From Eledone cirrhosa (lineage: Eukaryota), in contig OZ024743.1 in NCBI GenBank assembly GCA_964016885.1, positions 359,228,001 through 359,292,000 of the forward strand: DNA of 64,000 bases, read 5' to 3'. This document shows positions 1-36,792 of this stretch, piece after piece. Under the pieces are notes generated by a model. That model ran no database searches and had not been told where the DNA came from. It saw nothing but the letters and a program-made list of their open reading frames with translations. The position numbers and the translations under genes were made by a program. The first letter of the stretch is position 1. Every line of letters begins with the position of its first letter.

Positions 1-239
1 GTGCAAAGACAAAAGGCAGGGTGGACAAGTCAATGTCCTGCCACTAGAAATAGCAGCAGTCCAAACGGCCAAAATTTTATCTCTACTTTAGGTGGAGATC
101 AATAATAATAAAGTATGAATTCCTACGTGTAAACAGACAGAATTATTTCTTTCATCATCCGCTCTCATTTGGGAATAGTCTTGTAGGGCGTCAGTTTGTG
201 ATTTGAACTCGGAAATTTTATATTCTCCGAGGGAGGAGA

Positions 240-320
240 GCCTTCTGAAGATTGCTCCCTTCTCAATGGAATCCGCTTGGATTTTCCGTTTATTTTGGAG
301 CATGAAACCGCGGTAAAGGC
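240..320 (+). ncRNA. Type I hammerhead ribozyme in a PLE pLTR-like end running into (TA)n at ~478
   Basis: Stem I gcctt/aaggc; core CTGAAGA (245-251); stem II tgctcc/ggagca with an inner hairpin; GAAA (304-307); palindromic stem III ACCGCGGT; GUA cleavage triplet. Confidence 0.88.
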
Positions 321-474
321 ACATATAGTAAGCACAGCGAATTTTTTAAAATTTATTTTAAAACTTTTTCTCTATTTGCTAGACCTTGATTTTATATGTT
401 CTGGCTTGTTAATTTATTAACCCGCCATAGAACCACATTGGCATACGGTTGGATAATACTTGTTTCCCTATATG

Positions 475-517
<43 letters not shown>

Positions 518-736
518 GGGGTAACAAATAATAGTTAAATTCAGTCCACTTAGGTAAAGTCCAGTTATGGTATTCCAGGTAGTGGATGATATTAACGCTT
601 GGCTTGGTTTGACTCAACAAGGCGTTTTCATAGTGATGCTGCGGGTATGCCGTAATTCCTATGTTGTAAACACTTGGAGTAATAATAAATCAGGAAAGAA
701 GGTTGACATGGTTTGCTATACAAAAAAGGTTTTTAA

Positions 737-856
737 TCGCATAGCTGACAATTGTTTCTCTGAATTGGTAGGTCTAGAGATCGCTATTCGCTTATTTTCA
801 CGTTACTCGATCGCCAATACAAAATTATAACCAGTCAGATCTTCGGAGCATGCGAG
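737..856 (-). ncRNA. Hammerhead-like ribozyme with variant core CCGAAGA and extended stem II
   Basis: Minus strand reads tcgcatgct-CCGAAGA-tctgactggt...accaattcaga-GAAA-caatt-GTC-agctatgcga; stem I tcgcat-gct/agc-t-atgcga. Confidence 0.7.
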
Positions 857-954
857 AATGAAGAAAATAAACAGGCAAGAAAAGAATATACGGGCTACTA
901 TATGAAGTAGTAATAGCCTGTATATTCTTTTCTTGCCTGTGTATTTTCTTCATT

Positions 955-1074
955 CTCGCATGCTCCGAAGATATGACTGGTTATAATTTTGTATTGGCGA
1001 TCGAGTAACGTGAAAATAAGCGAATAGCGATCTCTAGACCTACCAGTTCAGAGAAACAATTGTCAGCTATGAGA
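955..1074 (+). ncRNA. Hammerhead-like ribozyme with variant core CCGAAGA (inverted copy)
   Basis: CCGAAGA at 965-971, GAAACAATTGTC at 1053-1064, followed by agctatg. Confidence 0.65.
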
Positions 1075-1119
1075 TTAAAACCTTTTTTGTATAGAAAACC
1101 ATGTCAACCTTCTTTCCTG

Positions 1120-2145
<1,026 letters not shown>

Positions 2146-2293
2146 TGTATATATATATATATAGTATACTAGGGAGAGGATCAGGGGTGTATAACACTCC
2201 ACTTATCCAGCAGGCAGTATAAGGTTAGCTCGATGTCTGAGGACAGAGCCGTGATATAATAAATAACAAAGAACGCCTATAGCATATGCATAT

Positions 2294-2351
2294 CTTTACT
2301 TGCTAACATTGTTTCATCCGCACTATAAGTGGGACTCATCAGAGCATAAAG
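2294..2351 (-). ncRNA. Hammerhead ribozyme in the inverted pLTR
   Basis: Reverse complement of 7479-7536. Confidence 0.82.
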
Positions 2352-2734
2352 GTTAATTACATACCATACAAGCAATAACAAATCCAAGACATTGAAGAAT
2401 GAAAAATAATAGAAGATAAAGGATATTAAGGAAGTAAAAGTAAAAATAAGAATAAAAATAAAAATAAAAATAAAAATAAAAATAAAAATAAAAATAAAAA
2501 TAAAAATAAAAATAAAAATAAAAATAAAAATAAAAATAAAAATAAAAATAAAAATAAAAATAAAAATAAAAATAAAAATAAAAATAAAATAATAAAATAA
2601 ACAATGAAAAATATCACGGCTCTGTCCTCAGACATCTAGCTAACCTTATACTGCCTGCTGGATAAGTGTAGTGTTATACACCCCTGATCCTCTCCCTAGT
2701 ATACTATACGGCTCCCACTGGTTGAGCTTAAACT

Positions 2735-5266
2735 TTGATATACGTGGATTTGTGTCCTTGTATATTATCAGGCAGTATGCTAACAAAGACATACTTACCC
2801 ATTTCCTTGAAGAATATTCCCACCCCCCCTAAAATCTCATATGAGAAATCACTGATAACTAGCATAAACTCATTCGTAAAACGTGTTCGGTGGCGTGCGT
2901 TCCATTTTGATAAGAAGTATGATAGCCCTGAAGAGAGGCGTAGTTTTAATAATTATGGATTTAAGACCTATAGGAGCCCCCCGCATAATAGCCTGTTGGA
3001 TAACTTCGAAAGTGAGCTATTATCCCTTGTTAGGAATATTAGATATAAAAAATCTAGATGTACCAATAAATTTCAGAGTAAACTAAGTTCAATCGTTAGG
3101 GACTTTAGGGATAATAAATCCATTCTGGTCCCCTCTGACAAAACTAAAAACTTATATAGTATGGATTATAAAACCTATCGAGGCTTCATTTATAATGAAC
3201 TACATAGGAACTACAAAAAAACAACGCAGAGTAATTTAGATAATATTAATCTGGAGGGGTATAACATAGTGGTAAAACTAGGTCTGGATAAACACACTCA
3301 GCCTTATTACCCCAAGCAGCCTAGATTCACCCTCAAGGACCACAAGGAAGATTTTATTAGCAGACCCTCAGTTAGGCTTATCTGCCCCTCCAAGTCTGAC
3401 CTGGGGATTATTAGTAAGGGAATCTTGGATAGCGTTATTCCCCTGGTTAGGGAAAAAACTTTCCTTGAGCTTTGGGGTAACACTAGTGAGGTCATTAGGT
3501 GGTTCTCTACGGATTGTGGTCGTGACTCACTCAAATTCATCCAATTTGATATTGATGCTTATTATACATCTATATCTCCTATTATCCTCAATAAGGCCCT
3601 TATCCTAGCCATGCAGAGGGGGGCAATTACAAGGCCACAGATAGATATTGTTCTCGCTGCACGTAAAACCATTATCATGTTTGAGGATAATCTATGGACG
3701 AGAAAAAACACACCTGATAATTTTGACATTACTATGGGGTCGAGTGACTCTGCTCAAGTCACCGACTTAGTTGGGCTATACCTCCTCAATGAACTGCATA
3801 GTAACTTCCCTTTCCTTAGGGGCGGGTTGTACCGGGATGACGCCCTACTCTCCATAGATACTAGTAAGTATAATATAGTGCGCATTAGGAAAAAGCTGCA
3901 TAGTTTTTTTAAAACATTTAACCTATCCATTACTATGGATATAAATGATAGAACTGTGAACTTCCTGGATGTTACATTGGACTTGGATAACCATACGTAC
4001 ACACCGTACCATAAGCCTAATGAATTGCTGACTTACGTGAATACTAACTCTAACCACCCTAGGTCGGTCATCAGCGGTATACTGAAGGGCGTATCTAACA
4101 GAATAAGTTCACTCTCACATAGTGAGGAGGCGTTTGACTCGCAGGCTGATTACTATAATGATGCCTTAGCTAGATCCGGCTTTAGGGACAAATTGTATTA
4201 CACCCAGGGAAATAATAGTCCTAATAGTAGCTCTACCAGTGTTGTTATAACACATAATATGTCCATTGGTAATGGAGGTGTCGCGAATGGGAGGGTTCTA
4301 AATGCCGGTGGAATGAAGCAGCAGGGCACCATTAGTCTAAGTAATAGCAATAGAGGTGTCGCGAATGGGAGGTTTCTAAATGCCGGTGGAATGAACCAGC
4401 AGGCCACCATTAGTCTAAATAATAGCAATGGTATGCCTCGCAGCTCCCCGCATAGACTAGGTGAGCATAGTAACCGTAGAAATAATAATGCTAACAATAG
4501 TGATGGAAATAGAAAGAATAAAAAGAATAGAAGAAGATTGAATACATACTTCAACCCCCCTTTTAATTCTGAAGTGGCTATAAATATTCCTAGGGCCTTC
4601 TTCTCTGTGTTAGAAAGGAACTTCCCTCCTGGTAATAGGTACCACTCTATCCTCAATAAGAATGTTGTTAAACTTTCGTATTCTACAACCCAAAATCTGG
4701 CCTCTCATCTGGCCATTACTAATAATAAGAAAATAAAGGAAGGCCTGGACAACCTAAGCCTAGGGGAAAACACGGTAGTGGACAGAGTGGGCAGAAACAC
4801 AAGTGGTGATCATTCTGAGAATAGCATCACCAGAGGTTGTAACTGTAGAAGGGCTTCAGGCTGCCCCCTGAATGGTTTCTGCCTTGTTAGAAACATAGTT
4901 TATGCGTGTGATGTGGTAACTACGGCGTCCACTAAAACCTATATAGGATCAACCTCCACCCCCTTTAAGACCAGGTTTATCTCTCACCAATGCACTTTTA
5001 GACATAATAAACTGAGGAACTCCACCTCCTTGGCAGCGTACGTCCATAATTTAAAAAATGCACGAACACATTACACACTTACTTGGCGGCAGGTTGCTAA
5101 ATCCCATCCATATACTCCTCATAATAGAGTATGTAACCTATGCCTTGCCGAATCCCACTCTATTATATTTGCTAAATGCCCTCTACTAAATAGAAAGTCT
5201 GAAATATTTTCCTCTTGCCCCCACCGAATATTAAGCTCTTTCTTCTACTTTAAACCTGTTAGCTAG
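2735..5266 (+). CDS. PLE polyprotein: reverse transcriptase plus C-terminal GIY-YIG endonuclease (first ATG at 2777); CxCx5C linker resembles the Hydra clade
   Basis: RT motifs IQFDIDAYYTSI, ITMGSSDS, GLYRDDAL, VNFLDVTLDL, YHKPN. Linker CNCRRASGCPLNGFC. Endonuclease motifs NIVY...TYIGST, FKTRFISH, CNLCLAES, LLNRKSE. The frame is uninterrupted for 843 aa. Confidence 0.95.
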   Translation: MIYVDLCPCILSGSMLTKTYLPISLKNIPTPPKISYEKSLITSINSFVKRVRWRAFHFDKKYDSPEERRSFNNYGFKTYRSPPHNSLLDNFESELLSLVRNIRYKKSRCTNKFQSKLSSIVRDFRDNKSILVPSDKTKNLYSMDYKTYRGFIYNELHRNYKKTTQSNLDNINLEGYNIVVKLGLDKHTQPYYPKQPRFTLKDHKEDFISRPSVRLICPSKSDLGIISKGILDSVIPLVREKTFLELWGNTSEVIRWFSTDCGRDSLKFIQFDIDAYYTSISPIILNKALILAMQRGAITRPQIDIVLAARKTIIMFEDNLWTRKNTPDNFDITMGSSDSAQVTDLVGLYLLNELHSNFPFLRGGLYRDDALLSIDTSKYNIVRIRKKLHSFFKTFNLSITMDINDRTVNFLDVTLDLDNHTYTPYHKPNELLTYVNTNSNHPRSVISGILKGVSNRISSLSHSEEAFDSQADYYNDALARSGFRDKLYYTQGNNSPNSSSTSVVITHNMSIGNGGVANGRVLNAGGMKQQGTISLSNSNRGVANGRFLNAGGMNQQATISLNNSNGMPRSSPHRLGEHSNRRNNNANNSDGNRKNKKNRRRLNTYFNPPFNSEVAINIPRAFFSVLERNFPPGNRYHSILNKNVVKLSYSTTQNLASHLAITNNKKIKEGLDNLSLGENTVVDRVGRNTSGDHSENSITRGCNCRRASGCPLNGFCLVRNIVYACDVVTTASTKTYIGSTSTPFKTRFISHQCTFRHNKLRNSTSLAAYVHNLKNARTHYTLTWRQVAKSHPYTPHNRVCNLCLAESHSIIFAKCPLLNRKSEIFSSCPHRILSSFFYFKPVS

Positions 5267-6521
5267 CACTTCCTTATTTCTCCAGTTGGGCTATCTTGTG
5301 TAACTGTCTCTGATTGTGTGTAACTGTCTCCTATTGTTGGTCTTCTATGTATATGAGTCGGTGAGTGTATACGTATGCCTGCGGGAGGATATTGATCTGG
5401 ATATTGGGGTGTACAGGTGAGTGGGTGTGTATGTTAATAAGCACCCCTGTTTGGCACAGCGGATGTAACCCATCCACGCTCGCCTACCCACCATTGGTGC
5501 ATTGGTGGGTCTATCCTGACGTATATCTTGTGGATCTGTACCTCTGTATGCGCATGAGTTGTGATGTAATGTATCTATGTAGAGCGTGTACTGTGATATA
5601 GGCTGCACTAATAGAAATTTAGCCTGTAACTGTGGGCGGACCTGTGCCATCCCGCCGTAAGCAGTAGATACGTGGCGCATGTACGTGTTGCCCTCATATT
5701 CTGTGGTTTAAGATCTACAGGCTGACTTCTGGGAGCTCTTGCCCGGGGTTGTAGTCTTTCTAGCACGATCGGCCTTCCATATATTGACGGTCGTTGTTAT
5801 GATCCCGAAAGTAACGTTTTGGCCCCGATAGCCCTCCGTAGTTACTAACGGTCTGTGTACACTTGAATCGGGCAATGGCACGTGCGGACATGATTATCTC
5901 CGTAGGAATTCAACTTTATTTTACTACATCTCATCGTATGTATTTATTTTGAATGTATTATCCGTGGTGGTGGGTCTTGCCTAATGTGGTATTTCGGTGT
6001 TTAATATCAGCTTTGACCCGGGTGTCCTACGCTGTGTGTGTGTGCGTGTGTGTCTGTGTATACATTTATATGTGTATGGGTATAGGTGGTTGTATATGTC
6101 TGTATATAAAAAAATATATATATATATATGTATACCGTCTCTGCTTATGCATGTGGTGTGTATATGTGCATATACGTGCTGAACATATTGATGTGTACAA
6201 TCTTGTGATGTCCCAATGCGGTGACTTCATGGCTCTTGAAGCTATTTTTTATATATTTTTTATATATCTTTTGTCTTTTTATATATCTTTTGTATGCGCT
6301 CCAACTGTGTCTGCTTGCTTTGGCTAACCCGCCTGCACCTCGCTTGCTACTGCACGTGAATTCTCCTACCTTCCTTCGATGCACCTCTGTTTGACCATTG
6401 GACTCCTGCCCGGGTGTGAACCGGTTTGTGATTACCCCACCGCTCAACTGTGTGAATGCACACCCGTGACTTTCGAGTGAACTTTTGAGACTGCCCAACC
6501 TGGGACGCCTCCATTGCCTTG

Positions 6522-6685
6522 CAATGGTCAAGTGATACTGCTGACTGTGACACTTAGTGCCTCCGTGGGCCCCTGATATTTTCAAGAAATATATTTTAAA
6601 AAAATGGTCAAGTGATACAGATAACTGTGACACTTAGTGCCTTCGTGGGCCCCTGATATATTCAAGAGATATATTCTAAAAAAAT
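6522..6685 (+). repeat. ~80-bp tandem duplication in the PLE 3' region
   Basis: aatggtcaagtgatac...ctgtgacacttagtgcc..cgtgggcccctgatat.ttcaaga occurs twice in succession. Confidence 0.85.
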
Positions 6686-6816
6686 ATATATCTTATCTCA
6701 ATTTACTTTATTTCATTTTATTTTATTTTATTTCATTTCATTTTATCTAATTTTATTTATTTACTTATTTAATTTCACTTAATTTCATTTATTTATTTAT
6801 TTATTTATTTATTTAC

Positions 6817-6856
<40 letters not shown>

Positions 6857-7478
6857 ATTTAATTTTAATTTTAATTTTATATATTTATTTGATTTTATTT
6901 ATTTATTTATTTATTTATTTAATTACATTTAATTATATCTTATATTATATTATTTTACTTTAGTCTATTTTATTTTATTTTAGTTTACCTTATTTTATCT
7001 TATTTTATGATTATATTATATTATGTTCTATTTTATATAATTTTAATTTTAATTTTATATTATTTTATTTCATTCCTTACCCTGTATCACTATTATCTGT
7101 ATATTTTATATTTTATATGTAAGTTTGTTATATATTTCTTTATATTTTCTTATATATATTATAAGTCTGTTTTTCACCTATTTTTTACCTACTCTTACCT
7201 AATCCTATCTATCATATCTACTCTTGTCTGTTCTCTTATCCATGTGTATGCTTGTATGTAACTATATGTTGACAGCACCCCGCCCAACTGTGACTGATAG
7301 CAACCCTTTATTTTTCATTATTTTTCATTGTTTATTTTATTATTTTATTTTTATTTTTATTTTTATTTTTATTTTTATTCTTATTTTTACTTTTACTTCC
7401 TTAATATCCTTTATCTTCTATTATTTTTCATTCTTCAATGTCTTGGATTTGTTATTGCTTGTATGGTATGTAATTAAC

Positions 7479-7536
7479 CTTTATGCTCTGATGAGTCCCA
7501 CTTATAGTGCGGATGAAACAATGTTAGCAAGTAAAG
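7479..7536 (+). ncRNA. Hammerhead ribozyme in the 3' pLTR
   Basis: cttta-tgct-CTGATGA-gtcc-cacttatagtgc-ggat-GAAA-caat-GTT-agca-ag-taaag. Confidence 0.82.
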
Positions 7537-7571
7537 ATATGCATATGCTATAGGCGTTCTTTGTTATTTAT

Positions 7572-7628
<57 letters not shown>

Positions 7629-7915: not shown

Positions 7916-8065
7916 ATATATATTTAAAGGTTAAACAAGGTTCAATGAATAAATCAATGAATAAAGTTTTACAATAGATTAGAAGCACTCCAAAGATTTT
8001 GTTTTCCGGAGTTATTAATATTAATTCAAAATATTAACAAAAATAGAGATTCGTGTGATCAAGTA

Positions 8066-8132
8066 TATTTTATTATACATATTTCAGAGGTACTGAGTTA
8101 ACTTCAACAGTACGTCCTCATCAGATAAAATA
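8066..8132 (-). ncRNA. Hammerhead ribozyme
   Basis: tattttat-CTGATGA-ggacgtactg...cagtacctct-GAAA-tatgt-ATA-ataaaata. Confidence 0.8.
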
Positions 8133-8662
8133 AGATGATGCATAACATACCTTGACTAAGTAGATGGTTAAAATTCAGTCATGTCAGTGAATAAGATATG
8201 ACAAAACTCAATATTTATATACCTTAAGATTGAGACATGAAAAAATTACATATAATAATACAATACAAATCTCCCTCCCTATATTTTATACTATAAACAT
8301 TATTTTCTCCTCCTATCCTCTCTATTCTTAATCCATTGTCTTTTGCTTTCGTGCATAAGATATTTCTATACTTCTAGTAACTCTCTTTTTCCTCATCTGT
8401 TTTTCTCTCTGTCTTTCACTTCTTCTTTCTTCAATAATTTAAATTATTTGAATCTCTAACAGTTATGTAAGTTTGTATTATATTAGTAGTTGTTTATTAT
8501 TATGTATCTTTATAAGCTTTATCACACGCACCCTCTGTATTATATGTAATTTTTTCATGTCTCAATCTTAAGGTATATAAATATTGAGTTTTGTCATATC
8601 TTATTCACTGCCATGACTGAATTTGAACCATCTACTTAGTCAGGGTATGTCATGCATCATCT

Positions 8663-8729
8663 TATTTTATCTGATGAGAACGTACTGTTGAAGATAGCTC
8701 AGTACCTCTGAAATTTGTGTAATGAAATA
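8663..8729 (+). ncRNA. Hammerhead ribozyme (diverged inverted copy)
   Basis: CTGATGA at 8671-8677, GAAA at 8710-8713, stem I tattttat/atgaaata. Confidence 0.7.
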
Positions 8730-8852
8730 TACTTGATCACACGAATGTCTATTTTTGTTAATATTTTGAATTAATATAAATATATATATATACACATATA
8801 TATGTGTGTATATATATATATATATATACATATATATGTATGTATATATATA

Positions 8853-8917
<65 letters not shown>

Positions 8918-8958
8918 GTGTATATATATATGTATATATATATATATATGTGTATATA

Positions 8959-9038
<80 letters not shown>

Positions 9039-9117
9039 TATATACATATATATACATATATATATAAATATATATATACATATATATATTTACATATATG
9101 TATACATATATATACAC

Positions 9118-9148
<31 letters not shown>

Positions 9149-9167
9149 CATATATATAAATATATAC

Positions 9168-9201
<34 letters not shown>

Positions 9202-9230
9202 ATACATATATATACATACATATATATATA

Positions 9231-11636
9231 GATAATTTAATATATCAACTAACATAAGCGCACAGATGCACGCCCATGCCAGCAAATACACAGGTTATGT
9301 CATAGTACCTAGGTGGTTCAATGCAGGAGAATGCAGAACAATAATATAAAGGACGTAAAATAAGAAAATATCTTTTTAAAAAAATTTAAAAAAAATTTTT
9401 TACTTACTTAAATTTTCACTCCAACTAATTAGTTTCTGCAATGGGATAAAGACAGTTACGTAATCCAACTGTCGAGAATTCATTGCGTCATCAGGGAGTC
9501 TATTCTCAGTTAAGTCTCCAGGCAATGCGCGGACACTGGCGGCTCATATAAAAATAATAATAGTTCGGTAGATCGAACAGCTTGCGAGGACTGGATTCTA
9601 TGTACCGAAATTCTCACTGCTTCAAGTCAAATGGCCGATTCTAAAGAATCAATCACGTGACACAGAGGCTAGTTAGAAGGAATGGGATGGTAAGATGACT
9701 GACGCCTACTAACACCCCAAAAAAAAATTTTTTTAGAAGTGGTTTTGACAAGTTTGCTCGACAAATCAGTGATTTGGAGATAAATATAGATAATTTAATA
9801 TATCAACTAACATAAGCGCACAGATGCACGCCCATGCCAGCAAATACACAGGTTATGTCATAGTACCTAGGTGGTTCAATGCAGGAGAATGCAGAACAAT
9901 AATATAAAGGACGTAAAATAAGAAAATATCTTTTTAAAAAAATTAAAAAAAAATTTTTTACTTACTTAAATTTACACTCCAACTAATTAGTTTCTGCAAT
10001 GGGATAAAGACAGTTACGTAATCCAACTGTCGAGAATTCATTGCGTCATCAGGGAGTCTATTCTCAGTTAAGTCTCCAGGCAATGCGCGGACACTGGCGG
10101 CTCATATAAAAATAATAATAGTTCGGTAGATCGAACAGCTTGCGAGGACTGGATTCTATGTACCGAAATTCTCACTGCTTCAAGTCAAATGGCCGATTCT
10201 AAAGAATCAATCACGTGACACAGAGGCTAGTTAGAAGGAATGGGATGGTAAGATGACTGACGCCTACTAACACCCCAAAAAAAAATTTTTTTAGAAGTGG
10301 TTTTGACAAGTTTGCTCGACAAATCAGTGATTTGGAGATAAATATAGATAATTTAATATATCAACTAACATAAGCGCACAGATGCACGCCCATGCCAGCA
10401 AATACACAGGTTATGTCATAGTACCTAGGTGGTTCAATGCAGGAGAATGCAGAACAATAATATAAAGGACGTAAAATAAGAAAATATCTTTTAAAAAAAA
10501 TTAAAAAAAAATTTTTTACTTACTTAAATTTACACTCCAACTAATTAGTTTCTGCAATGGGATAAAGACAGTTACGTAATCCAACTGTCGAGAATTCATT
10601 GCGTCATCAGGGAGTCTATTCTCAGTTAAGTCTCCAGGCAATGCGCGGACACTGGCGGCTCATATAAAAATAATAATAGTTCGGTAGATCGAACAGCTTG
10701 CGAGGACTGGATTCTATGTACCGAAATTCTCACTGCTTCAAGTCAAATGGCCGATTCTAAAGAATCAATCACGTGACACAGAGGCTAGTTAGAAGGAATG
10801 GGATGGTAAGATGACTGACGCCTACTAACACCCCAAAAAAAAATTTTTTTAGAAGTGGTTTTGACAAGTTTGCTCGACAAATCAGTGATTTGGAGATAAA
10901 TATAGATAATTTAATATATCAACTAACATAAGCGCACAGATGCACGCCCATGCCAGCAAATACACATGTTATGTCATAGTACCTAGGTGGTTCAATGCAG
11001 GAGAATGCAGAACAATAATATAAAGGACGTAAAATAAGAAAATATCTTTTTAAAAAAATTTAAAAAAAATTTTTTACTTACTTAAATTTTCACTCCAACT
11101 AATTAGTTTCTGCAATGGGATAAAGACAGTTACGTAATCCAACTGTCGAGAATTCATTGCGTCATCAGGGAGTCTATTCTCAGTTAAGTCTCCAGGCAAT
11201 GCGCGGACACTGGCGGCTCATATAAAAATAATAATAGTTCGGTAGATCGAACAGCTTGCGAGGACTGGATTCTATGTACCGAAATTCTCACTGCTTCAAG
11301 TCAAATGGCCGATTCTAAAGAATCAATCACGTGACACAGAGGCTAGTTAGAAGGAATGGGATGGTAAGATGACTGACGCCTACTAACACCCCAAAAAAAA
11401 ATTTTTTTAGAAGTGGTTTTGACAAGTTTGCTCGACAAATCAGTGATTTGGAGATAAATATAGATAATTTAATATATCAACTAACATAAGCGCACAGATG
11501 CACGCCCATGCCAGCAAATACACAGGTTATGTCATAGTACCTAGGTGGTTCAATGCAGGAGAATGCAGAACAATAATATAAAGGACGTAAAATAAGAAAA
11601 TATCTTTTTAAAAAAATTAAAAAAAATTTTTTTACT
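9231..11636 (-). mobile_element. Tandem array of ~4.3 near-identical 558-bp non-coding units with one HHR each (non-LTR retrozyme-like)
   Basis: Units start (gataatttaatatatc) at 9231, 9789, 10347, 10905 and 11463. No ORF. Minus-strand HHRs at 9418, 9976, 10534 and 11092. Confidence 0.88.
9418..9499 (-). ncRNA. Hammerhead ribozyme of the 558-bp unit (further copies at 9976-10057, 10534-10615, 11092-11173)
   Basis: actcc-CTGATGA-c-gcaatg...[gacagtt/aactgtc hairpin]...cattgc-a-GAAA-ctaatta-GTT-ggagt; palindromic stem III ACTAATTAGT. Confidence 0.88.
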
Positions 11637-12941
11637 CCTAAACAAGAAAGATGAACTGGTTACTGCATGTAAACATAGATTGCGTAGGACTTACCTCGCC
11701 CTCAAACCCCATAATGACCCGGGGGGGTAGACTAGGGCTATAACACCCCACTTGCCGATTTTGCAATGGGTAACCCCTGCTTGCCAAGGGAGATGTAAGA
11801 TCTTCTTTGTATTCTTTTATCGCTTCCTTTATTTCCTTCCCCCCTCTCTCCTTAGTCCTTCTACCCCAGCTCTTCTCCTTTGTCGGCGTCTTTTCTCGCC
11901 CACCCGAGGCTGCCCTTTGGCCCCTTGTAGCCTTAGTACCCCCACCCCTCCCCTAGTCTATGATAGATTTGGCGGACTCCGCCCTTTATAGCAGTTGGTT
12001 TAGACCCCGGATACTTGTCCCCTTTTTCCGACCGCTCCCACTATTCTCTGTGCCCTCGATATTTCTTAGTGGCACTTATGCCTTATTTTTTCGTTTCAGT
12101 ATTTCTTTCTTCGCTTTTCTTTTGGGCGGGGTGGATTCTGAATTTATTTTTCCGTATTCTACCTTTACTTCGTACGAACTTTCATGTAGCTTGTTTCAGA
12201 TCTTTTAGAGTTAGCATTAGTATATATTTTTCTCGGGACTCAGAATTATTATCTCGTACTAGTTCACTTTGCTGCACTGGGTGGTTGCTGGCATTGTGCC
12301 CAGGATGGAAACCTTTATTGTTTATTTCGTGGTAGTCTCTTTAGTATTTTGGCCCCTTTTGTTGACCCGTCACCGTATCATTTACGTACTTATACCTCTT
12401 AAAAGGGTCCTTGCCTATTTCGTCCCACCTAGTTCTTTTACTTATTTCGTTATTTCTTTATTTCTTTCTTTACTTCTTTCTTTCTTTCTTTATTTATTTA
12501 TTCTAGCCTAACAATAGCTAGAGACCTAGGTCGTAGAATTTACTTTACTTTTTTCTTTACACTTATTTGCTTTTCTTCACTCTCAGTATTTTTTCTTTCC
12601 TATATATTTCTACCCCCCATTGTTCTACCTACCGTTCCGACTTCCTCCCCCTCCCCCTCCCCTGTATCTTCTTTGACCTCATGCCCAGCTGTAGCTGGCA
12701 CTACCAACGCTTGATTGGGTCTACTCCACCCCCCCCTCTTTCTCCTACTGGCAGGTTTAGCCACCATCTCCCCTACTAATTTGCAACCACAGAATTACTA
12801 CTGATTTTTGACAATCACTTTGAACATATATGGAATTACCCCTTCAGAAGATCGGCTATTTAAATACCAGGATAAATTTTCATTTAGTCCAGAATTAGCC
12901 GTCGAAACGGCTTGAGCTCAGCTGTCGGGGTCTTACTGGTT

Positions 12942-12945
<4 letters not shown>
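11637..12945 (+). mobile_element. Heavily 5'-truncated PLE: last ~30 codons plus 3' UTR/pLTR
   Basis: 11638-11730 translates to LNKKDELVTACKHRLRRTYLALKPHNDPGG*, which is similar to LNRKSEIFSSCPHR in the 843-aa ORF. Ends in an HHR-like motif and then (TA)n. Confidence 0.8.
12838..12931 (+). ncRNA. Hammerhead-like motif with variant core CAGAAGA
   Basis: acccc-tt-CAGAAGA-tcggcta...tagccgtc-GAAA-cggcttgagctcagct-GTC-ggggt. Confidence 0.65.
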
Positions 12946-13007
<62 letters not shown>

Positions 13008-15032: not shown

Positions 15033-15778
15033 CAAATAACGAAACGAAATTAAATTTCGTTTCGTTTGTAACTCACTTTTGTATGACTGACGCTTAAACA
15101 ATTAAGTTAAAAATGTACATCCACATATGTATACTGAAATACTAGTATGCATATGAATACACACACGTGTACATATGTAGATGTACCGAGTTTTTCACTG
15201 GACACTTTACTGTGAGTGTCCAGCTATTCTGTATGTAAACACACAGACAAACCGGTTTTTAGAGTCATACTGGTTTTCGAGGAAACACCTTTCCTCTATT
15301 CTCCAGAAAGCCAGACAAGGAATATTGGACTAGTTTCGATGTTTTTACATATCATCAGCAATATTTACCTATCTTCCGGCCTTTGTAGAGAATCGTAAAA
15401 GCACATATCGTTATATGCTTTTTCTATGAAAATTAGTAGTGGGCAGACTAATTTTCATAGAAAAAGCATATAACGATATGTGCTTTTACGATTCTCTAGA
15501 AAGGCCGGAAGATAGGTAAATATTGCTGATGAGATGTAACAACATCGAAACTAGTCCAATATTCCTTGTCTGGCTTTCTGAAGAATAGAGGAAAGGTGTT
15601 TCCTCGAAAACCAGTATGACTCTAAAAACCGGTTTGTCTGTGTGTTTACATACAGAATAGCTGGACACTCACAGTAAAGTGTCCAGTGAAAAACTCGGTA
15701 CATCTACATATGTACACGTGTGTGTATTCATATGCATACTAGTATTTCAGTATACATATGTGGATGTACATTTTTAAC

Positions 15779-15785
<7 letters not shown>
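15030..15785. mobile_element. Head-to-head insertion with ~340-bp arms and two minimal HHRs
   Basis: 15100-15437 is the reverse complement of 15447-15784. Flanked by TA. A third terminal copy lies at 15845-15943. Confidence 0.85.
15519..15563 (+). ncRNA. Minimal type I hammerhead ribozyme (inverted copy at 15321-15365)
   Basis: aatattg-CTGATGA-gatgt-aaca-acatc-GAAA-cta-GTC-caatatt; all stems pair perfectly. Confidence 0.93.
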
Positions 15786-16360: not shown

Positions 16361-17195
16361 CAACATACTGATTGCGGATTTGGTACGGGTGATGAGAAAT
16401 GTGTCCCGCATGTGCAACACCGAAGAACTAGAGAGACACATACAACACTTCATCCACCGTATGCAGTTCTCTGGCTACAATCAGAGAGATAGAATCAGAG
16501 TGTATAGAGGAGCCAGAACCAAATGGGAAAAAATGGTAAATAATGACATAAATGGGACCTGCCCCTTGTATAGGAGCAAATTTTGGAATAGAATAGAAAG
16601 AACTAGGAACAAGGCCAATAGAATAAATTCATGGTATGATAGCAATAAATACCAGAGCGTAATGTTCATCAATACAACCCCTAGAGGTGAACAAGCCTAC
16701 AAATTTAGAAGGGCCCTAAATAAACATAAACTCAATATTAAGATAGTAGAAAGACCTTGTACCTCCGTAAAAACACTTATTAGCAAGACATACCCGTTCC
16801 AAAGACCCTCATGTATAGATAAGAAATGTATAACCTGTAAAATAAGCCCCCATATTAACTGTAAAACTAGAAATGTAGTGTATAGCATAAGATGTACTGA
16901 AGGACAATGTAGAAACAAAAATATAGTGTACATAGGTGAGACAGCTCGTAGTATAGGGGAACGGATAAATGAACACTGGCGAGACCTTCAAGATAATAAA
17001 GAATCATCTGTACTCTACCAACATGCTAAGATAGAACACAAGGGTAAATTAGAGAACATAGAAATAAAAATAGAATCCACACACAGAAAAGATGCAATGT
17101 TAAGGCAAATTACAGAGGCAGTAAGCATAAAAGAATTACAACCAAAATTAAATAGAAAATATGAGTGGAACAGCAACATCACAACTTACAATTAA
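16361..17195 (+). pseudogene. Truncated PLE ORF: RT thumb, Cys linker and GIY-YIG
   Basis: CIDKKCITC, CKTRNVVYSIRC, VYIGETARSIGERINEH, RQITEAVSI, PKLNRKYE. The N-terminus of the listed 316-aa ORF comes from the inverted pLTR. Confidence 0.88.
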
Positions 17196-18755: not shown

Positions 18756-18808
<53 letters not shown>

Positions 18809-18811
<3 letters not shown>

Positions 18812-21134
18812 AAACAAAATGAAAACGAAATTTCATTTCTCACTCTTAGTATGGCACTTACTTAAATGTAAGTATGCATGTATACGTACATACATATATG
18901 TATACAGACGTACAGTAGCATGCACATATATATATATATATACATATATACATACATATGCATACAGGTACACATACATATATGCACGTATCAGTTTAGC
19001 GGCGCTAACGTCGCTTTGTTCGTTTGTAAACAAACTGAACAGCCTGAATTTATGCCATACGGTGTTAAGGCAACCACGTCACCTTTTTGTTCAACACTGA
19101 CACAGGAACGATGTACTAGTTTCAAGCTTGTTAGCTATCATCAGCACCGTTTACCCATCTGCCAGATAGTTGAACGTTCGAAAGTATATACTTTCCTTAT
19201 GAAAATTAACGGCTGAGCAGCCTAATTTGCATATTGAGTGAGTTAAATCGGTCAGGCATACCGAAAACGATAAATTGAAACAAAATGAAAACGAAATTTC
19301 ATTTCTCACTTTTAGTATGGCACTTACTTAAATGTAAGTATGCATGTATACGTACATACATATATGTATACAGACGTACAGTAGCATGCACATATATATA
19401 TATATATATACATATATACATACATATGCATACAGGTACACATACATATATGCACGTATCAGTTTAGCGGCGCTAACGTCGCTTTGTTCGTTTGTAAACA
19501 AACTGAACAGCCTGAATTTATGCCATACGGTGTTAAGGCAACCACGTCACCTTTTTGTTCAACACTGACACAGGAACGATGTACTAGTTTCAAGCTTGTT
19601 AGCTATCATCAGCACCGTTTACCCATCTGCCAGATAGTTGAACGTTCGAAAGTATATACTTTCCTTATGAAAATTAACGGCTGAGCAGCCTAATTTGCAT
19701 ATTGAGTGAGTTAAATCGGTCAGGGATACCGAAAACGATAAATTGAAACAAAATGAAAACGAAATTTCATTTCTCACTATTAGTATGGCACTTACTTAAA
19801 TGTAAGTATGCATGTATAGTACATACATATATGTATACAGACGTACAGTAGCATGCACACATATATATATATATACATATATACATACATATGCATACAG
19901 GTACACATACATATATGCACGTATCAGTTTAGCGGCGCTAACGTCGCTTTGTTCGTTTGTAAACAAACATCGTTCCTGTGTCAGTGTTGAACAAAAAGGT
20001 GACGTGGTTGCCTTAACACCGTATGGCATAAATTCAGGCTGTTCAGTTTGTTTACAAACGAACAAAGCGACGTTAGCGCCGCTAAACTGATACGTGCATA
20101 TATGTATGTGTACCTGTATGCATATGTATGTATATATGTATATATATATATATGTGCATGCTACTGTACGTCTGTATACATATATGTATGTACGTATACA
20201 TGCATACTTACATTTAAGTAAGTGCCATACTAAGAGTGAGAAATGAAATTTCGTTTTCATTTTGTTTCAATTTATCGTTTTCGGTATGCCTGACCGATTT
20301 AACTCACTCAATATGCAAATTAGGCTGCTCAGCCGTTAATTTTCATAAGGAAAGTATATACTTTCGAACGTTCAACTATCTGGCAGATGGGTAAACGGTG
20401 CTGATGATAGCTAACAAGCTTGAAACTAGTACATCGTTCCTGTGTCAGTGTTGAACAAAAAGGTGACGTGGTTGCCTTAACACCGTATGGCATAAATTCA
20501 GGCTGTTCAGTTTGTTTACAAACGAACAAAGCGACGTTAGCGCCGCTAAACTGATACGTGCATATATGTATGTGTACCTGTATGCATATGTATGTATATA
20601 TGTATATATATATATATATGTGCATGCTACTGTACGTCTGTATACATATATGTATGTACGTATACATGCATACTTACATTTAAGTAAGTGCCATACTAAG
20701 AGTGAGAAATGAAATTTCGTTTTCATTTTGTTTCAATTTATCGTTTTCGGTATGCCTGACCGATTTAACTCACTCAATATGCAAATTAGGCTGCTCAGCC
20801 GTTAATTTTCATAAGGAAAGTATATACTTTCGAACGTTCAACTATCTGGCAGATGGGTAAACGGTGCTGATGATAGCTAACAAGCTTGAAACTAGTACAT
20901 CGTTCCTGTGTCAGTGTTGAACAAAAAGGTGACGTGGTTGCCTTAACACCGTATGGCATAAATTCAGGCTGTTCAGTTTGTTTACAAACGAACAAAGCGA
21001 CGTTAGCGCCGCTAAACTGATACGTGCATATATGTATGTGTACCTGTATGCATATGTATGTATATATGTATATATATATATGTGCATGCTACTGTACGTC
21101 TGTATACATATATGTATGTACGTATACATGCATA

Positions 21135-21137
<3 letters not shown>
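18809..21137. mobile_element. Two head-to-head tandem arrays (~2.5 units each) of a 466-468-bp HHR-bearing unit (non-LTR retrozyme-like)
   Basis: Orientation flips at about 19968. HHRs at 19107-19151(-), 19575-19619(-), 20394-20438(+) and 20860-20904(+). Both outer ends lie in (TA)n. Confidence 0.9.
20394..20438 (+). ncRNA. Minimal type I hammerhead ribozyme of the 466-bp unit
   Basis: aacggtg-CTGATGA-tagctaacaagctt-GAAA-cta-GTA-catcgtt, identical in all five copies. Confidence 0.9.
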
Positions 21138-21218
<81 letters not shown>

Positions 21219-28822: not shown

Positions 28823-29050
28823 AGAACAAAAGATGGTTAAAAGAGTTCCATGTATTTTATTATGCGCATTTCAAAAACAAATATCATCATGATATTTGTT
28901 TTTGAAATGCGCATAATAAAATATATTGAACTCCTTTAACCATCTTTTGATCTTATATTATGCATACTCCAGTCCCACAAACTGTAGAGTGCTTCTTATC
29001 CGATATCTGCATTGCTTTATTGTACTACAATAAAACTCACCTCCTACATA

Positions 29051-29055
<5 letters not shown>
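28820..29055. mobile_element. Miniature head-to-head insertion of the pLTR end of the element at 29103-33928
   Basis: About 28818-28887 is the reverse complement of about 28892-28960. The right arm continues with the ~87-nt tail also seen at 29105-29190. Confidence 0.8.
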
Positions 29056-29108
<53 letters not shown>

Positions 29109-31429
29109 GGAGGTGAGTTTTATTGTAGTACAATAAAGCAATGCAGATATCGGATAAGAAGCACTCTACAGTTTGTGGGACTGGAGTATGCATAATATAA
29201 GATCAAAAGATGGTTAAAGGAGTTCAATATATTTTATTATGCGCATTTCAAAAACAAACATCATCAAACAATAATATTTGTGTTTTCATCAGATAAAACA
29301 GGAGAACATGATATGAAGGCTAAAAAAAACACTTGTTGATAGTGCAGTTTTAAATCAACATATGAAAAGTGGTTTTAGATTGATGTGTGATATTGGGAAA
29401 AATATTTTATTTAGAGAGGGGGGGAGAGAAAAGGATGAAAAGGGAAGGAGATGAGAGGGAGAGATGGGTGATAGAGAGAAAGAGATAGTTTTTATAACAG
29501 AGAGGAGATATATTTTATATAGAGGGGTTGAAAACCGTTGGAAGATACTGTATAAATTAAAAATTTTGAAAATTAACGAAGGGAGGATATGTGCGAGGAA
29601 AAAATATATTATATTTAGGGAGGGGTGGGGGTGGAAAGGATGAAAAAAAGGGGAGGAGATGAGAGTGAAGGTGGAAAGGGAGAGATGGGTGATAGAGAGA
29701 AAGAGATAGTTTTTATAACAGAGAGGAGATATATTTTATATAGAGGGGTTGAAAACCGTTGGAAGATACTGTATAAATTAAAAATTTTGAAAATTAACGA
29801 AGGGAGGATATGTGCGAGGAAAAAATATATTATATTTAGGGAGGGGTGGGGGTGGAAAGGATGAAAAAAAGGGGAGGAGATGAGAGTGAAGGTGGAAAGG
29901 GAGAGATGGGTGATAGAGAGAAAGAGATAGTTTTTATAACTGAGAAAAAGATATAATGTTTTAATATAGAGAGGTTGGGAACCGTTGGAAGATAATGTAT
30001 AAATTAAAGGAATTTGAAAATTAACGAAGGGAAATTATGTATGGAGATAGAGAGAAAAAAATAACGAAGGGAGATTATGTATGGAGATAGAGAGAAAAAA
30101 AAAAAAAATAATTGTGGGTGAATATTCAAAAGGAGAAATGTAGGAATTTTAAAATTAGCAAAGAGAAAAAGTTTATGTATAGGATTTGAGAAAAATAATG
30201 TGAAGTTAGAGTTTTTATATTGAATTCATATGTATTAATAATGAGTTCGTTGATGGGGAGAAAAAAATAATAATAAATTAAGGATGAAATTGAGATTAAA
30301 AAGATTTATGATAGAGAGAAAAAATAATAATGATTGCGGATGAATACTCAAAATGTCAAAAACAAATGTTATTGTTTTACGAGGAGATATAATGAGGGTG
30401 ATGAGTAAACGGGTATTATAGAGTGTATAATGCCCTTTAAAGTAAGGTAGATGGGTATATTTTAAAGAATATATGAGTATATATTAAAAAAAAATATATA
30501 ATAATAAATTAAGGATGAAATTGAGATTAAAAAGATTTATGATAGAGGGAAAAAAAAAAAAAATAATAATGATTGCGGATGAATATTCAAAATGTCAAAA
30601 ACAAATGTTATTGTTTTACGAGAAGATAGGATGAGGTAAATGAGTAAACGAGTACTATAGAGTGTATAATGCCCTTTAAAGTAAGGTAGATGGGTATGTT
30701 TTAAAGAGGTGTATGTATATGTGCCTTTGAGAAAAGATTCTAAATTGATAAAGAATTGAATATTAACTGTATACTTTGTGAAAAGTTCTATGGAATTTAT
30801 GCAGGCAGATGGAAAACAAATCCGAGCGTCTATTTATTATGGATTCTAGGTTAGAGATAATGGTAAATTTTTCATTTAGGCAGAGATTACAGATTTTAGA
30901 TAGAGAACTGTTCAAGTACGAGGATGCAGAAGAAATCTTTTTCCAAAAGATGTTATATTTAATGTTTTTGTCTTTTAAGGACCATATGAGTTCTGAGAGA
31001 GCAGTGTTAGTTCTTTTAAGTTTGTATTTGAAAGATGAATGATGATTATAGAGACGAGCTTTAAAAGAGGTGGAAGTGGAGCCAAAATAGGTGAAGGAGT
31101 TGGTGCTAGTTATAATTTTACATTCATAAATTAAGTTTTTATCGAGGCAATGGTTGTTGAGAGGACATTTATTTTTAATGCGGCAGTTGCAATTAGAGAG
31201 ATTATTAATGAGTGATCTAGTGTTATCTATAGAAGGAATTGGATTGGAGAAGTTGTTTGCGATAGGAATAATAGGAATAATAGTTTCTTGATTTAGAGTT
31301 GGATTATGAACATTTAGCGAAGTTGTGTTTGACGTTGCATTTGGGTTTACAGAAGTTAGCCTAGGGTTTACAATGACGTCAGGAGTACTATTATTGTTAT
31401 TATGAGAATCTTAATTATGTTAACTTTAA

Positions 31430-32571
31430 ATGAGAATCTTAATTATGTTAACTTTAAATCTAACCATCCTACCAATATCAAGAATGCTATAGTTAATAAT
31501 ATTGGAAATAGAATATCTAACATATCTTCTAATAAAAACATCTTTGATGCTAACGCCAATTACTATAATAACGCACTTTCTAAAGCCGGCTATCCAGATA
31601 AAATCAAATATAATAAAGAAACAAATTCTAGGAAAACTTACAGTAGAATATTTAATCATAACCATTCCAATAATTTTAATAAAAGACCTAGATACAAAAA
31701 CATAATCTGGTATAATGCTCCTTTCTCCATCTCTATTAATAACAATATTCCTAAATTATTTTTTAGTGCCTTAAATAAATGCTTCCCTCCCTCACATATC
31801 TATAGTAAAATATTTAACAAACACACCATTAAATTTTCGTATTCTACATCCTCCAATATTTCCAACATCATTTCTAAACACAACAACAAAATATTAAATA
31901 CTAAATCTCTTCCTTCCAATATTGAATCTCATAATAACAATAATAGTACTCCTGACGTCATTGTAAACCCTAGGCTAACTTCTGTAAACCCAAATGCAAC
32001 GTCAAACACAACTTCGCTAAATGTTCATAATCCAACTCTAAATCAAGAAACTATTATTCCTATTATTCCTATCGCAAACAACTTCTCCAATCCAATTCCT
32101 TCTATAGATAACACTAGATCACTCATTAATAATCTCTCTAATTGCAACTGCCGCATTAAAAATAAATGTCCTCTCAACAACCATTGCCTCGATAAAAACT
32201 TAATTTATGAATGTAAAATTATAACTAGCACCAACTCCTTCACCTATTTTGGCTCCACTTCCACCTCTTTTAAAGCTCGTCTCTATAATCATCATTCATC
32301 TTTCAAATACAAACTTAAAAGAACTAACACTGCTCTCTCAGAACTCATATGGTCCTTAAAAGACAAAAACATTAAATATAACATCTTTTGGAAAAAGATT
32401 TCTTCTGCATCCTCGTACTTGAACAGTTCTCTATCTAAAATCTGTAATCTCTGCCTAAATGAAAAATTTACCATTATCTCTAACCTAGAATCCATAATAA
32501 ATAGACGCTCGGATTTGTTTTCCATCTGCCTGCATAAATTCCATAGAACTTTTCACAAAGTATACAGTTAA
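31430..32571 (+). pseudogene. 5'-truncated PLE ORF (thumb, CxCx5C linker, GIY-YIG); a shorter antisense copy lies at ~30763-31407
   Basis: LNYVNFKSNHP, IIWYNAPFS, CNCRIKNKCPLNNHC, NLIY...TYFGST, CNLCLNEK, IINRRSD; clearly homologous to the 843-aa ORF. Confidence 0.9.
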
Positions 32572-33820
32572 TATTCAATTCTTTATCAATTTAGAATCTT
32601 TTCTCAAAGGCACATATACATACACCTCTTTAAAATATACCCATCTACCTTACTTTAAAGGGCATTATACACTCTATAGTACTCGTTTACTCATTTACCT
32701 CATCCTATCTTCTCGTAAAACAATAACATTTGTTTTTGACATTTTGAATATTCATCCGCAATCATTATTATTTTTTTTTTTTCCCTCTATCATAAATCTT
32801 TTTAATCTCAATTTCATCCTTAATTTATTATTATATATTTTTTTTTTTTTTTTTTTAATATATACTCATATATTCTTTAAAATATACCCATCTACCTTAC
32901 TTTAAAGGGCATTATACACTCTATAATACCCGTTTACTCATCACCCTCATTATATCTCCTCGTAAAACAATAACATTTGTTTTTGACATTTTGAGTATTC
33001 ATCCGCAATCATTATTATTTTTTCTCTCTATCATAAATCTTTTTAATCTCAATTTCATCCTTAATTTATTATTATTTTTTTCTCCCCATCAACGAACTCA
33101 TTATTAATACATATGAATTCAATATAAAAACTCTAACTTCACATTATTTTTCTCAAATCCTATACATAAACTTTTTCTCTTTGCTAATTTTAAAATTCCT
33201 ACATTTCTCCTTTTGAATATTCACCCACAATTATTATTTTTTTTTTCTCTCTATCTCCATACATAATCTCCCTTCGTTATTTTTTTCTCTCTATCTCCAT
33301 ACATAATTTCCCTTCGTTAATTTTCAAATTCCTTTAATTTATACATTATCTTCCAACGGTTCCCAACCTCTCTATATTAAAACATTATATCTTTTTCTCA
33401 GTTATAAAAACTATCTCTTTCTCTCTATCACCCATCTCTCCCTTTCCACCTTCACTCTCATCTCCTCCCCTTTTTTTCATCCTTTCCACCCCCACCCCTC
33501 CCTAAATATAATATATTTTTTCCTCGCACATATCCTCCCTTCGTTAATTTTCAAAATTTTTAATTTATACAGTATCTTCCAACGGTTTTCAACCCCTCTA
33601 TATAAAATATATCTCCTCTCTGTTATAAAAACTATCTCTTTCTCTCTATCACCCATCTCTCCCTCTCATCTCCTTCCCTTTTCATCCTTTTCTCTCCCCC
33701 CCTCTCTAAATAAAATATTTTTCCCAATATCACACATCAATCTAAAACCACTTTTCATATGTTGATTTAAAACTGCACTATCAACAAGTGTTTTTTTTAG
33801 CCTTCATATCATGTTCTCCT

Positions 33821-33889
33821 GTTTTATCTGATGAAAACACAAATATTATTGTTTGATGATGTTTGTTTTTGAAATGCGCATAATAAAAT
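33821..33889 (+). ncRNA. Hammerhead ribozyme (inverted copy at 29231-29299)
   Basis: gttttat-CTGATGA-aaacacaaatattatt-gttt-gatgatgtttgttttt-GAAA-tgcgc-ATA-ataaaat; palindromic stem III ATGCGCAT. Confidence 0.85.
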
Positions 33890-33920
33890 ATATTGAACTC
33901 CTTTAACCATCTTTTGATCT

Positions 33921-33952
<32 letters not shown>

Positions 33953-36750: not shown

Positions 36751-36790
<40 letters not shown>

Positions 36791-36792
<2 letters not shown>

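What the first reader, a model, noticed from the sequence alone, without database searches (positions are those of the whole stretch)
9231..11636. 558-bp tandem HHR repeat: an unusually large non-LTR retrozyme-like unit
Seen: 4.3 nearly identical non-coding units, each with one well-formed minus-strand HHR (branched stem II, GUU site). Known: metazoan non-LTR retrozymes are tandem HHR repeats of a few hundred nt that yield circular RNAs. Inference: transcripts self-process to 558-nt monomers or circles, and the array reflects reverse transcription around a circle. The unit is at or above the size range I recall for this class.
Basis: partly seen in the sequence, partly recalled or inferred. 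Interest (0 to 1): 0.78.

Follow-up and report, generated by a model that had tools for sequence, protein, structure and literature searches.

The report
Tandem hammerhead repeat, Penelope-type retrozyme
A 558-base non-coding unit repeated 4.3 times, each copy carrying a self-cutting hammerhead RNA motif, is most likely an ordinary member of the known animal 'retrozyme' repeats that ride on Penelope-like jumping genes, with a slightly unusual ribozyme fold as its only novelty.

Summary
Observation confirmed: 9231-11636 is 4 x 558 + 174 bp, units differ at 1-4 positions, no ORF, and each full unit has a minus-strand type I hammerhead (HHR) cutting after GUU to give 5' GGAGUG. The HHR is not textbook: C.A mismatch at the base of stem II, weak palindromic stem III (predicted to work as a dimer), and stem II carries an internal loop, not a branch. 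That loop can pair with bases upstream of stem I; a diverged relative at window 245 keeps this pseudoknot with compensatory changes. The unit is a multi-copy family with other (AT)n-joined ends, in a window full of Penelope-like elements (PLEs). Two corrections: 558 bp is not unusually large (published families 51-972 bp); and two linked haplotypes alternate along the array, which argues against copying round one monomer circle. Verdict: new member of the non-LTR retrozymes, probably PLE-mobilised into a (TA)n tract from a multimeric RNA. Transcription, cleavage and circles are untested.

The parts
9231..11636 (-). Tandem array, 4 x 558 bp + 174 bp; HHR sense is the minus strand, so 9231 is its 3' end
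9231..9422 (-). 3' stub, 192 nt downstream of the last HHR cut site; ends at the (AT)n tract with ATATA microhomology (9226-9230)
9423..9980 (-). Predicted 558-nt monomer 1 (cut site to cut site), haplotype A157/A186
9981..10538 (-). Predicted monomer 2, haplotype A157/A186
10539..11096 (-). Predicted monomer 3, haplotype T157/T186 (same as the 3' stub)
11097..11636 (-). 5' partial monomer, 540 nt, stopping 18 nt short of the next cut site
9418..9499 (-). Type I HHR 1: stem I 5 bp, core 9494-9488, C.A mismatch, stem II 6 bp + internal loop + hairpin, GAAA, palindromic stem III, GUU; cut between 9423 and 9422
9976..10057 (-). Type I HHR 2 (identical core and stems)
10534..10615 (-). Type I HHR 3
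11092..11173 (-). Type I HHR 4
9423..9434 (.). 12-nt perfect palindrome spanning stem III (also 9981-9992, 10539-10550, 11097-11108); pairs in trans in the double-hammerhead fold
9473..9508 (-). Candidate stem I-stem II pseudoknot: 9508-9502 (upstream of stem I) pairs with 9479-9473 (5' strand of the stem II internal loop); 6 Watson-Crick pairs + 1 U.G; repeated in every unit
   Evidence: predicted only
8774..9230 (.). Imperfect (AT)n microsatellite, the inferred insertion target
   Evidence: TRF array 8774-9245
11637..12946 (+). Different non-coding repeat joined directly to the array's 5' end and ending in (TA)n at 12946 (head-to-head, tails out); plus orientation inferred from its terminus family
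233..469 (+). Diverged relative of the unit: same HHR build (U.U mismatch, 6-bp stem II, internal loop, palindromic stem III, pseudoknot 233-238 with 259-264), ~65% identity downstream of the cut, ends in (TA)n

Best explanation
A non-autonomous, PLE-dependent tandem hammerhead repeat (non-LTR retrozyme). Shown from sequence: tandem non-coding units, one type I HHR each, multi-copy family, 3' end at (AT)n. Inferred: minus-strand read-through transcripts cut themselves only partly, because the HHR is weak as a monomer (C.A at 10.1-11.1, GUU, 3-bp stem III) and needs two copies pairing through the 12-nt palindrome, helped by a stem I-stem II pseudoknot; this yields 558-nt monomers (possibly ligated to circles) and uncut multimers. 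A PLE RT/GIY-YIG protein nicks a (TA)n tract, primes internally on the RNA at an ATATA patch about 190 nt downstream of a cut site and copies a multimeric, sequence-heterogeneous RNA (or switches between monomers), giving 4.3 units with interleaved haplotypes; the opposite strand was filled from a different PLE-type RNA (11637-12946).
For: Array and HHR. Two copies co-fold into the double-hammerhead topology, -55.2 vs -45.6 kcal/mol for two monomers. Multi-copy, diverged family: on the laid 1,882-bp stretch (one unit plus right flank) run X1 gave 10,947 contigs spread over 99+/95-99/90-95/<90% identity (2592/3287/3781/1287), X22 29,050 reads, with depth in every bin of the unit in all 4 runs. 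Other copies join (AT)n at other unit positions: 9 reads from 6 starts at 11576, also an ATATA patch, more at 11584 (neither is an AATT site). PLE context: 17 HHR hits in the window (4 are this array; ~0.1 expected from the shuffle rate), GIY-YIG hits above cutoff at 49254-50000 and 16779-17192, an 844-aa ORF whose Atlas look-alikes include GIY-YIG/RVT_1 clusters. 12 of 13 terminal HHRs lie <=300 nt upstream of a perfect (TA)8 tract vs 22% of random positions (the 13 are about 8 independent insertions). In the sibling 466-bp HHR array one arm starts exactly at its HHR cut site (19968, 1-nt ambiguity). Literature: tandem type I HHR repeats as retrozymes and PLEs as likely movers (PMC7229834; Li et al. 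2026); PLE (TA)n bias and inverted 5' partners; internal priming, both strands extended, uncleaved RNA as main substrate (PMC11167929).
Against: No RNA evidence of any kind. No autonomous PLE sharing this unit was found: none in the window and no whole genome is held. The one miss in the (TA)8 test is this array itself (392 nt to a perfect tract; 192 nt to the edge of the imperfect tract). No target-site duplication can be read. The array's 5' end is 18 nt short of a cut site. In the monomer the core mispairs (CUGAU with AUUAG; active fold costs 2.5 kcal/mol) and in the dimer fold A14 pairs with U17; Li et al. saw cleavage in only 1 of 9 tested dimers, so this HHR may be inactive. The head-to-tail joint and the 11636/11637 junction fell in a stretch that read laying skipped (11602-11636), so neither was confirmed in independent data.
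Confidence: 0.68

Rival explanations
1. The unit is the pLTR/3' tail of an autonomous PLE that was inserted once here and expanded at the DNA level (unequal crossover) into a small satellite; the HHR is just inherited and no retrozyme RNA cycle exists.
For: HHR has PLE-type traits (long stem II, extra base after A9, 5-bp stem I, palindromic stem III; PMC4209133); period-3 haplotype pattern (u1=u4, u2~u5) fits duplication of a block; Li et al. discuss this route; the relative at 245 is seen only as a single 3' end.
Against: Independent contigs run through the register of the array's 3' end and through the HHR cut site (X5 records 11160-11561 and 11083-11183, X2 record 11426-11582), as expected for a tandem or circularly permuted unit elsewhere; no ORF at the locus; a sibling family shows ready-made tandem arms inserted tails-out in (TA)n.
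Confidence: 0.15
2. One reading: RT went 4.3 times round one 558-nt circular RNA; the differences between units arose later (mutation, gene conversion with other copies) or in assembly.
For: Non-integer unit number, exact 558-bp period, near identity; well-folded circle; this is the published model (PMC7229834). Three of the five variable positions sit at A/T homopolymer boundaries where errors are common.
Against: Positions 157 and 186 co-vary as two haplotypes in the order T,T / A,A / A,A / T,T; one monomer template would need the same double change twice. A trimeric circle remains possible.
Confidence: 0.12
3. The tandem arrangement or unit number is an assembly artefact of a high-copy repeat.
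For: High-copy family next to a 470-bp microsatellite; no independent record spans the array.
Against: Units carry distinct linked variants and an exact period; analogous tandem HHR arms occur at 18804-21144.
Confidence: 0.05

Closest known systems
Metazoan non-LTR retrozymes (Cervera & de la Pena 2020, PMC7229834; Li, Clavereau & Pollet 2026 preprint 10.64898/2026.07.22.740005)
   Same: Head-to-tail non-coding repeats, one type I HHR per unit, GC <50%, weak palindromic stem III favouring dimers, self-paired monomer, co-occurrence with PLEs; most families have at most seven units. Axolotl HHR_Amex2 also has a mismatch (U.U) at the base of stem II.
   Different: 558 bp is above the 150-450 bp of the 2020 paper though inside 51-972 bp of the 2026 preprint; stem II region is 51 nt with an internal loop and a predicted pseudoknot in place of the canonical loop 1-loop 2 contacts; C.A mismatch and GUU site; RNA and circles not shown.
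pLTR hammerheads of Penelope-like elements (Cervera & de la Pena 2014, PMC4209133; Craig et al. 2021; Frangieh et al. 2024, PMC11167929)
   Same: Long helix II, 4-5-bp helix I, extra base after A9, palindromic stem III; 3' ends in (TA)n; inverted partner at the 5' end; the PLE with the ORF at 2732-5263 also has a GUU-site HHR (7488).
   Different: No RT/EN ORF in or next to the array; no autonomous parent identified; stem III is a real 3-bp stem rather than minimal.
Pseudoknotted hammerheads (Perreault et al. 2011, PMC3088659)
   Same: Base-paired stem I-stem II tertiary contact, predicted in about 40% of hammerheads and in all three types, needed for fast cleavage where tested.
   Different: Here the partner is an internal loop of an extended stem II in a repetitive animal type I HHR; the passages I read did not describe that case, but I could not see the figures or supplementary alignments.

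Membership tests
non-LTR retrozyme | Head-to-tail tandem repeat with at least two consecutive units | tested here: met
   4 x 558 + 174 bp
non-LTR retrozyme | Type I HHR in every full unit | tested here: met
   4 of 4 full units; 0 of 20,000 shuffles; not recognised by Rfam
non-LTR retrozyme | No protein coding; GC below 50% | tested here: met
   longest Met-ORF 27 aa; GC 36%
non-LTR retrozyme | Highly self-paired monomer RNA | tested here: met
   circular MFE -131.7, z -4.9 (60 shuffles); linear z -3.7, 0 of 100 shuffles
non-LTR retrozyme | Multi-copy family at several loci | tested here: met
   many diverged contigs and reads; (AT)n joints at other unit positions; runs are of the same or related organisms, not shown to be this individual; whether other copies are tandem was not shown
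non-LTR retrozyme | Unit size in the described range | tested here: met
   inside 51-972 bp; outside the earlier 150-450 bp
non-LTR retrozyme | Target-site duplication longer than 4 bp, when present | tested here: inconclusive
   left end in (AT)n, right end fused to another repeat
non-LTR retrozyme | Expressed; self-cleaves; accumulates as circular RNA | not testable with these tools
   no RNA run could be laid
canonical type I HHR | CUGANGA, GAAA, NUH and three stems | tested here: met
   GUU is listed among active NUH sites (PMC3138052)
canonical type I HHR | Base pair at 10.1-11.1 directly flanking the core | tested here: not met
   C.A mismatch, or G-C pair with one extra base on each side; no majority change at these positions among the 40 best-supported variants shown, 266 not shown
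canonical type I HHR | Stem I-stem II tertiary contact | tested here: inconclusive
   6-7-bp pseudoknot predicted; second family keeps it with one two-sided and one one-sided change; only two sequences
autonomous PLE / its pLTR | RT + GIY-YIG ORF flanked by the repeat | tested here: not met
   no long ORF in the array or in 11637-12946; no tblastn hit of the window's PLE proteins there
autonomous PLE / its pLTR | Unit homologous to the pLTR of a coding PLE | tested here: inconclusive
   none in the window or in 2 PLE loci from metagenomes; genome not held
PLE-mobilised insertion | 3' end in (TA)n and inverted partner at the 5' end | tested here: met
   the partner is a different family and its orientation is inferred
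plant LTR retrozyme | Type III HHR in LTRs around a central region | tested here: not met
   type I HHR, tandem units only

The most novel reading that the evidence does not exclude
A superfamily of PLE-derived retrozymes in this animal uses a distinct hammerhead subtype (mismatched stem II base, extended stem II whose internal loop forms a pseudoknot with the strand upstream of stem I, obligate dimer cleavage), and its arrays record copying of partly cleaved multimeric RNAs rather than monomer circles, with the two DNA strands of one insertion primed on two different RNAs. This would make the template question for animal retrozymes (circle versus linear multimer) directly testable from genome sequence alone.
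Probability: 0.3. Interest if true: 0.55.

Novelty: new member of a known kind. Interest (0 to 1): 0.33.

Why it matters
As a locus it is one more animal retrozyme. What it adds: (1) a predicted pseudoknotted type I hammerhead variant with covariation between two families, which standard Rfam models miss, so such repeats are probably under-counted; (2) interleaved haplotypes here and a sibling array that starts exactly at its cut site bear on the open question of whether retrozyme arrays are copied from circles or from partly cleaved linear multimers, and on whether PLE-type hammerheads cut in vivo.

Tried and rejected
Whole genome: not held, so no genome-wide copy count or parent search. Rfam: 0 matches at gathering score in 64 kb; 5 chance-level matches at E<=10 in 9200-10400, none a hammerhead. 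Sequencing runs: no RNA holder listed; this is no evidence on expression; 18 of 24 rows hold part of the unit, only 4 runs were laid. Rejected as evidence: piles of read ends and heterogeneous loose ends in X22 at 11466/11469 (which coincide with the register of the array's 3' end), 11151, 12882 and 12893 - 11466, 11151 and 12893 are AATT sites (12882 lies near the one at 12875) and read starts at 11666/11669 sit on a GCATG site, i.e. restriction ends of a RAD library (enzymes inferred, names recalled as SphI and MluCI), not element termini. Summed depths were not turned into copy numbers. HHR pattern in metagenome contigs: 0 matches. Relatives of the 844-aa PLE protein in metagenomes: 2 loci, no HHR of this kind and no similarity to the unit. 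No tRNA gene; one B-box-like match on the plus strand without an A box, so no Pol III promoter claimed. The last bases of the array read ACTCC, the complement of the first 5 nt after a cut site, which could be a 5' end at the cut site with a 15-nt skip; only 2 bases support it, so not claimed. No similarity upstream of the core between the unit and the 245 element (score 24 vs shuffle mean 24.3); nhmmer gives the downstream match only E 0.094. Earlier findings by place and by sequence: none. Lunse et al. 2016 on PLE hammerhead variants is not held and the supplement of PMC7229834 could not be read; both may already show such a variant. Three paper searches aimed at the HHR variant listed no paper whose title or abstract start describes it.

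Full report
Observation. The array is as described. Unit starts lie at 9231, 9789, 10347, 10905 and 11463; four units are exactly 558 bp and the fifth matches for 174 bp, to 11636; the six pairwise comparisons of full units show 1-4 differences. It is non-coding (longest stop-free frame 52 codons, longest Met-ORF 27 aa) and 36% GC. My descriptor finds a type I hammerhead on the minus strand of each full unit, cores at 9494, 10052, 10610 and 11168, first base after the cut at 9422, 9980, 10538 and 11096; 0 of 20,000 shuffles of the unit gave a motif this good. Rfam did not recognise it. There are thus three complete cut-to-cut monomers, a 192-nt 3' stub and a 540-nt 5' piece.

The ribozyme. Stems I (5 bp) and II (6 bp) are predicted with probability 0.95-1.0, but stem III only ~0.11, because CUGAU can pair with AUUAG; the active fold costs 2.5 kcal/mol. 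Stem III lies in a perfect 12-nt palindrome, and two copies co-fold without constraints into the double-hammerhead topology (-55.2 vs -45.6 kcal/mol), though with A14 paired to U17. This matches the dimer model for animal and PLE hammerheads (PMC4209133, passages and section 5; PMC6765202, passages). Two departures from the consensus: a C.A mismatch where 10.1-11.1 should pair (U.U is the tolerated natural mismatch, PMC3088659 section 8; axolotl HHR_Amex2 has it) and a GUU site (listed as cleavable, PMC3138052 passages; that it is slower than GUC is recalled, from no call). Stem II is not branched: it continues through a 7x7 internal loop into an 8-bp hairpin. The 5' strand of that loop is complementary over 6 Watson-Crick pairs plus one U.G to the bases 2 nt upstream of stem I (chance about 0.004 for a random window segment, a post hoc figure). 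A second hammerhead at window 245 has the same build, and the same two strands pair over 6 bp with four pairs unchanged, one A-U to G.U and one U-A to G-C (chance about 0.017; a second register with two G.U pairs is also possible there). The two elements are related downstream of the cut (76 of 117 columns, score 64 vs shuffle mean 27.5 and maximum 51 of 300) but not upstream, and nhmmer rates the match only E 0.094. A pattern for this build matches only these 5 places in the window, 0 in 100 shuffles (the pattern was written from these two motifs). Pseudoknots between stems I and II are known in all hammerhead types (PMC3088659 passages), so this is at most a new local variant, resting on two sequences.

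Family status. No genome is held. 18 of 24 listed runs hold part of the unit. I laid 4 runs on one unit plus the right flank (11079-12960). X1 gave 10,947 contigs across all identity classes, X22 29,050 reads, X2 87 and X5 25 contigs (counts for the whole stretch); every bin of the unit is covered in all four, and several positions (11184, 11237, 11583) differ from the window in most of the depth. So the unit is a diverged multi-copy family. Reads join (AT)n to unit position 11576 (9 reads, 6 starts) and 11584, i.e. other copies end at other ATATA-like patches. The large piles of read ends near the register of the array's own 3' end are restriction ends and were discarded. None of the 40 variants shown touches the core, the C.A mismatch or the GUU site, but 266 were not shown. 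The tool skipped 11602-11636, so the head-to-tail joint and the right junction were not checked.

Context. The window is a PLE landscape: 17 hammerhead hits including this array's 4, GIY-YIG domains above cutoff at 49254-50000 and 16779-17192, an 844-aa ORF with no Pfam hit of its own whose Atlas look-alikes (0.95-0.98) include GIY-YIG and RVT_1 clusters, and several inverted, tails-out insertions. 12 of 13 terminal hammerheads have a perfect (TA)8 tract within 300 nt downstream of the cut, against 22% of random positions; the miss is this array (392 nt to a perfect tract, 192 nt to the edge of the imperfect one), and the 13 represent about 8 insertions. The array's 5' end is fused directly to a different non-coding repeat (11637-12946) that ends in (TA)n and whose terminus is abundant and usually continues with a tail; the pair is head-to-head, like the inverted partners described for PLEs (Craig et al. 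preprint, passages). A purified PLE protein nicks AT-rich DNA, extends both strands, primes internally, and uses mainly uncleaved RNA (PMC11167929, parts 1-2 of 4), which fits this anatomy by analogy.

Circle or multimer. Unit positions 157 and 186 read T,T; A,A; A,A; T,T; A,- along the array. One monomeric circle cannot give that without the same double change twice. A heterogeneous multimeric transcript, a trimeric circle, template switching or later recombination can. In the sibling 466-bp family at 18804-21144, the right arm begins exactly at the hammerhead cut site (19968, 1-nt ambiguity) and contains two further uncut hammerheads: a single case, but the signature of a partly cleaved linear template, and the best hint in this window that such hammerheads cut in vivo. 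This array's own 5' end is 18 nt short of its cut site.

Comparison with what is known. It works like, and passes every testable defining feature of, the animal non-LTR retrozymes (PMC7229834, parts 2-4 of 6; supplement unreadable). The size claim fails: a 2026 preprint (parts 1-3 of 5; supplements not seen) reports family consensus lengths of 51-972 bp, ties retrozymes to PLE pLTRs, and found cleavage in only 1 of 9 dimers tested. It is not an autonomous PLE at this locus and no parent was found. Expression, cleavage and circles are untested. PMC10085705, PMC7761336 and PMC6155905 were seen as passages only and added nothing against this reading.

Verdict. New member of a known kind; interest 0.33, carried by the pseudoknotted variant and by the evidence on the template, not by the unit size.

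Noticed in passing
window 18804-21144: Second tandem hammerhead family (466-bp unit) as two inverted arms, both tails in (TA)n; the right arm starts exactly at the hammerhead cut site (19968). A diverged single copy lies at about 1499-2022.
   Followed up: partly
window 233-469: Diverged relative of the 558-bp unit with the same hammerhead build and candidate pseudoknot; ends in (TA)n; upstream part is cut by the window start.
   Followed up: partly
window 2160-7572: PLE-like element with an uninterrupted 844-codon frame (2732-5263), a GUU-site hammerhead at 7488 and an inverted copy of it at 2342.
   Followed up: partly
window 29187-33933: 4.7-kb near-perfect palindromic PLE insertion (3' part of an ORF, hammerheads at 29292 and 33828 facing outwards).
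   Followed up: no
window 15100-15784 and 8050-8770: Short inverted insertions with outward-facing hammerheads, ends in (TA)n.
   Followed up: no
window 46477-50000: Interrupted PLE ORF with a GIY-YIG domain; its 3' part is duplicated at 44833-45234.
   Followed up: no
window 12843-12946 and 36788-36990: Very abundant terminus family with two apparent 3' ends (with and without a tail); has a stem followed by GAAAC but no intact CUGANGA core.
   Followed up: partly
window 685-1125 and 28873-29285: Further 420-440-bp palindromes bordered by or centred on (TA)n tracts.
   Followed up: no
window 42588-43292: Fragment of a LINE-type reverse transcriptase (RVT_1, E 1e-9).
   Followed up: no
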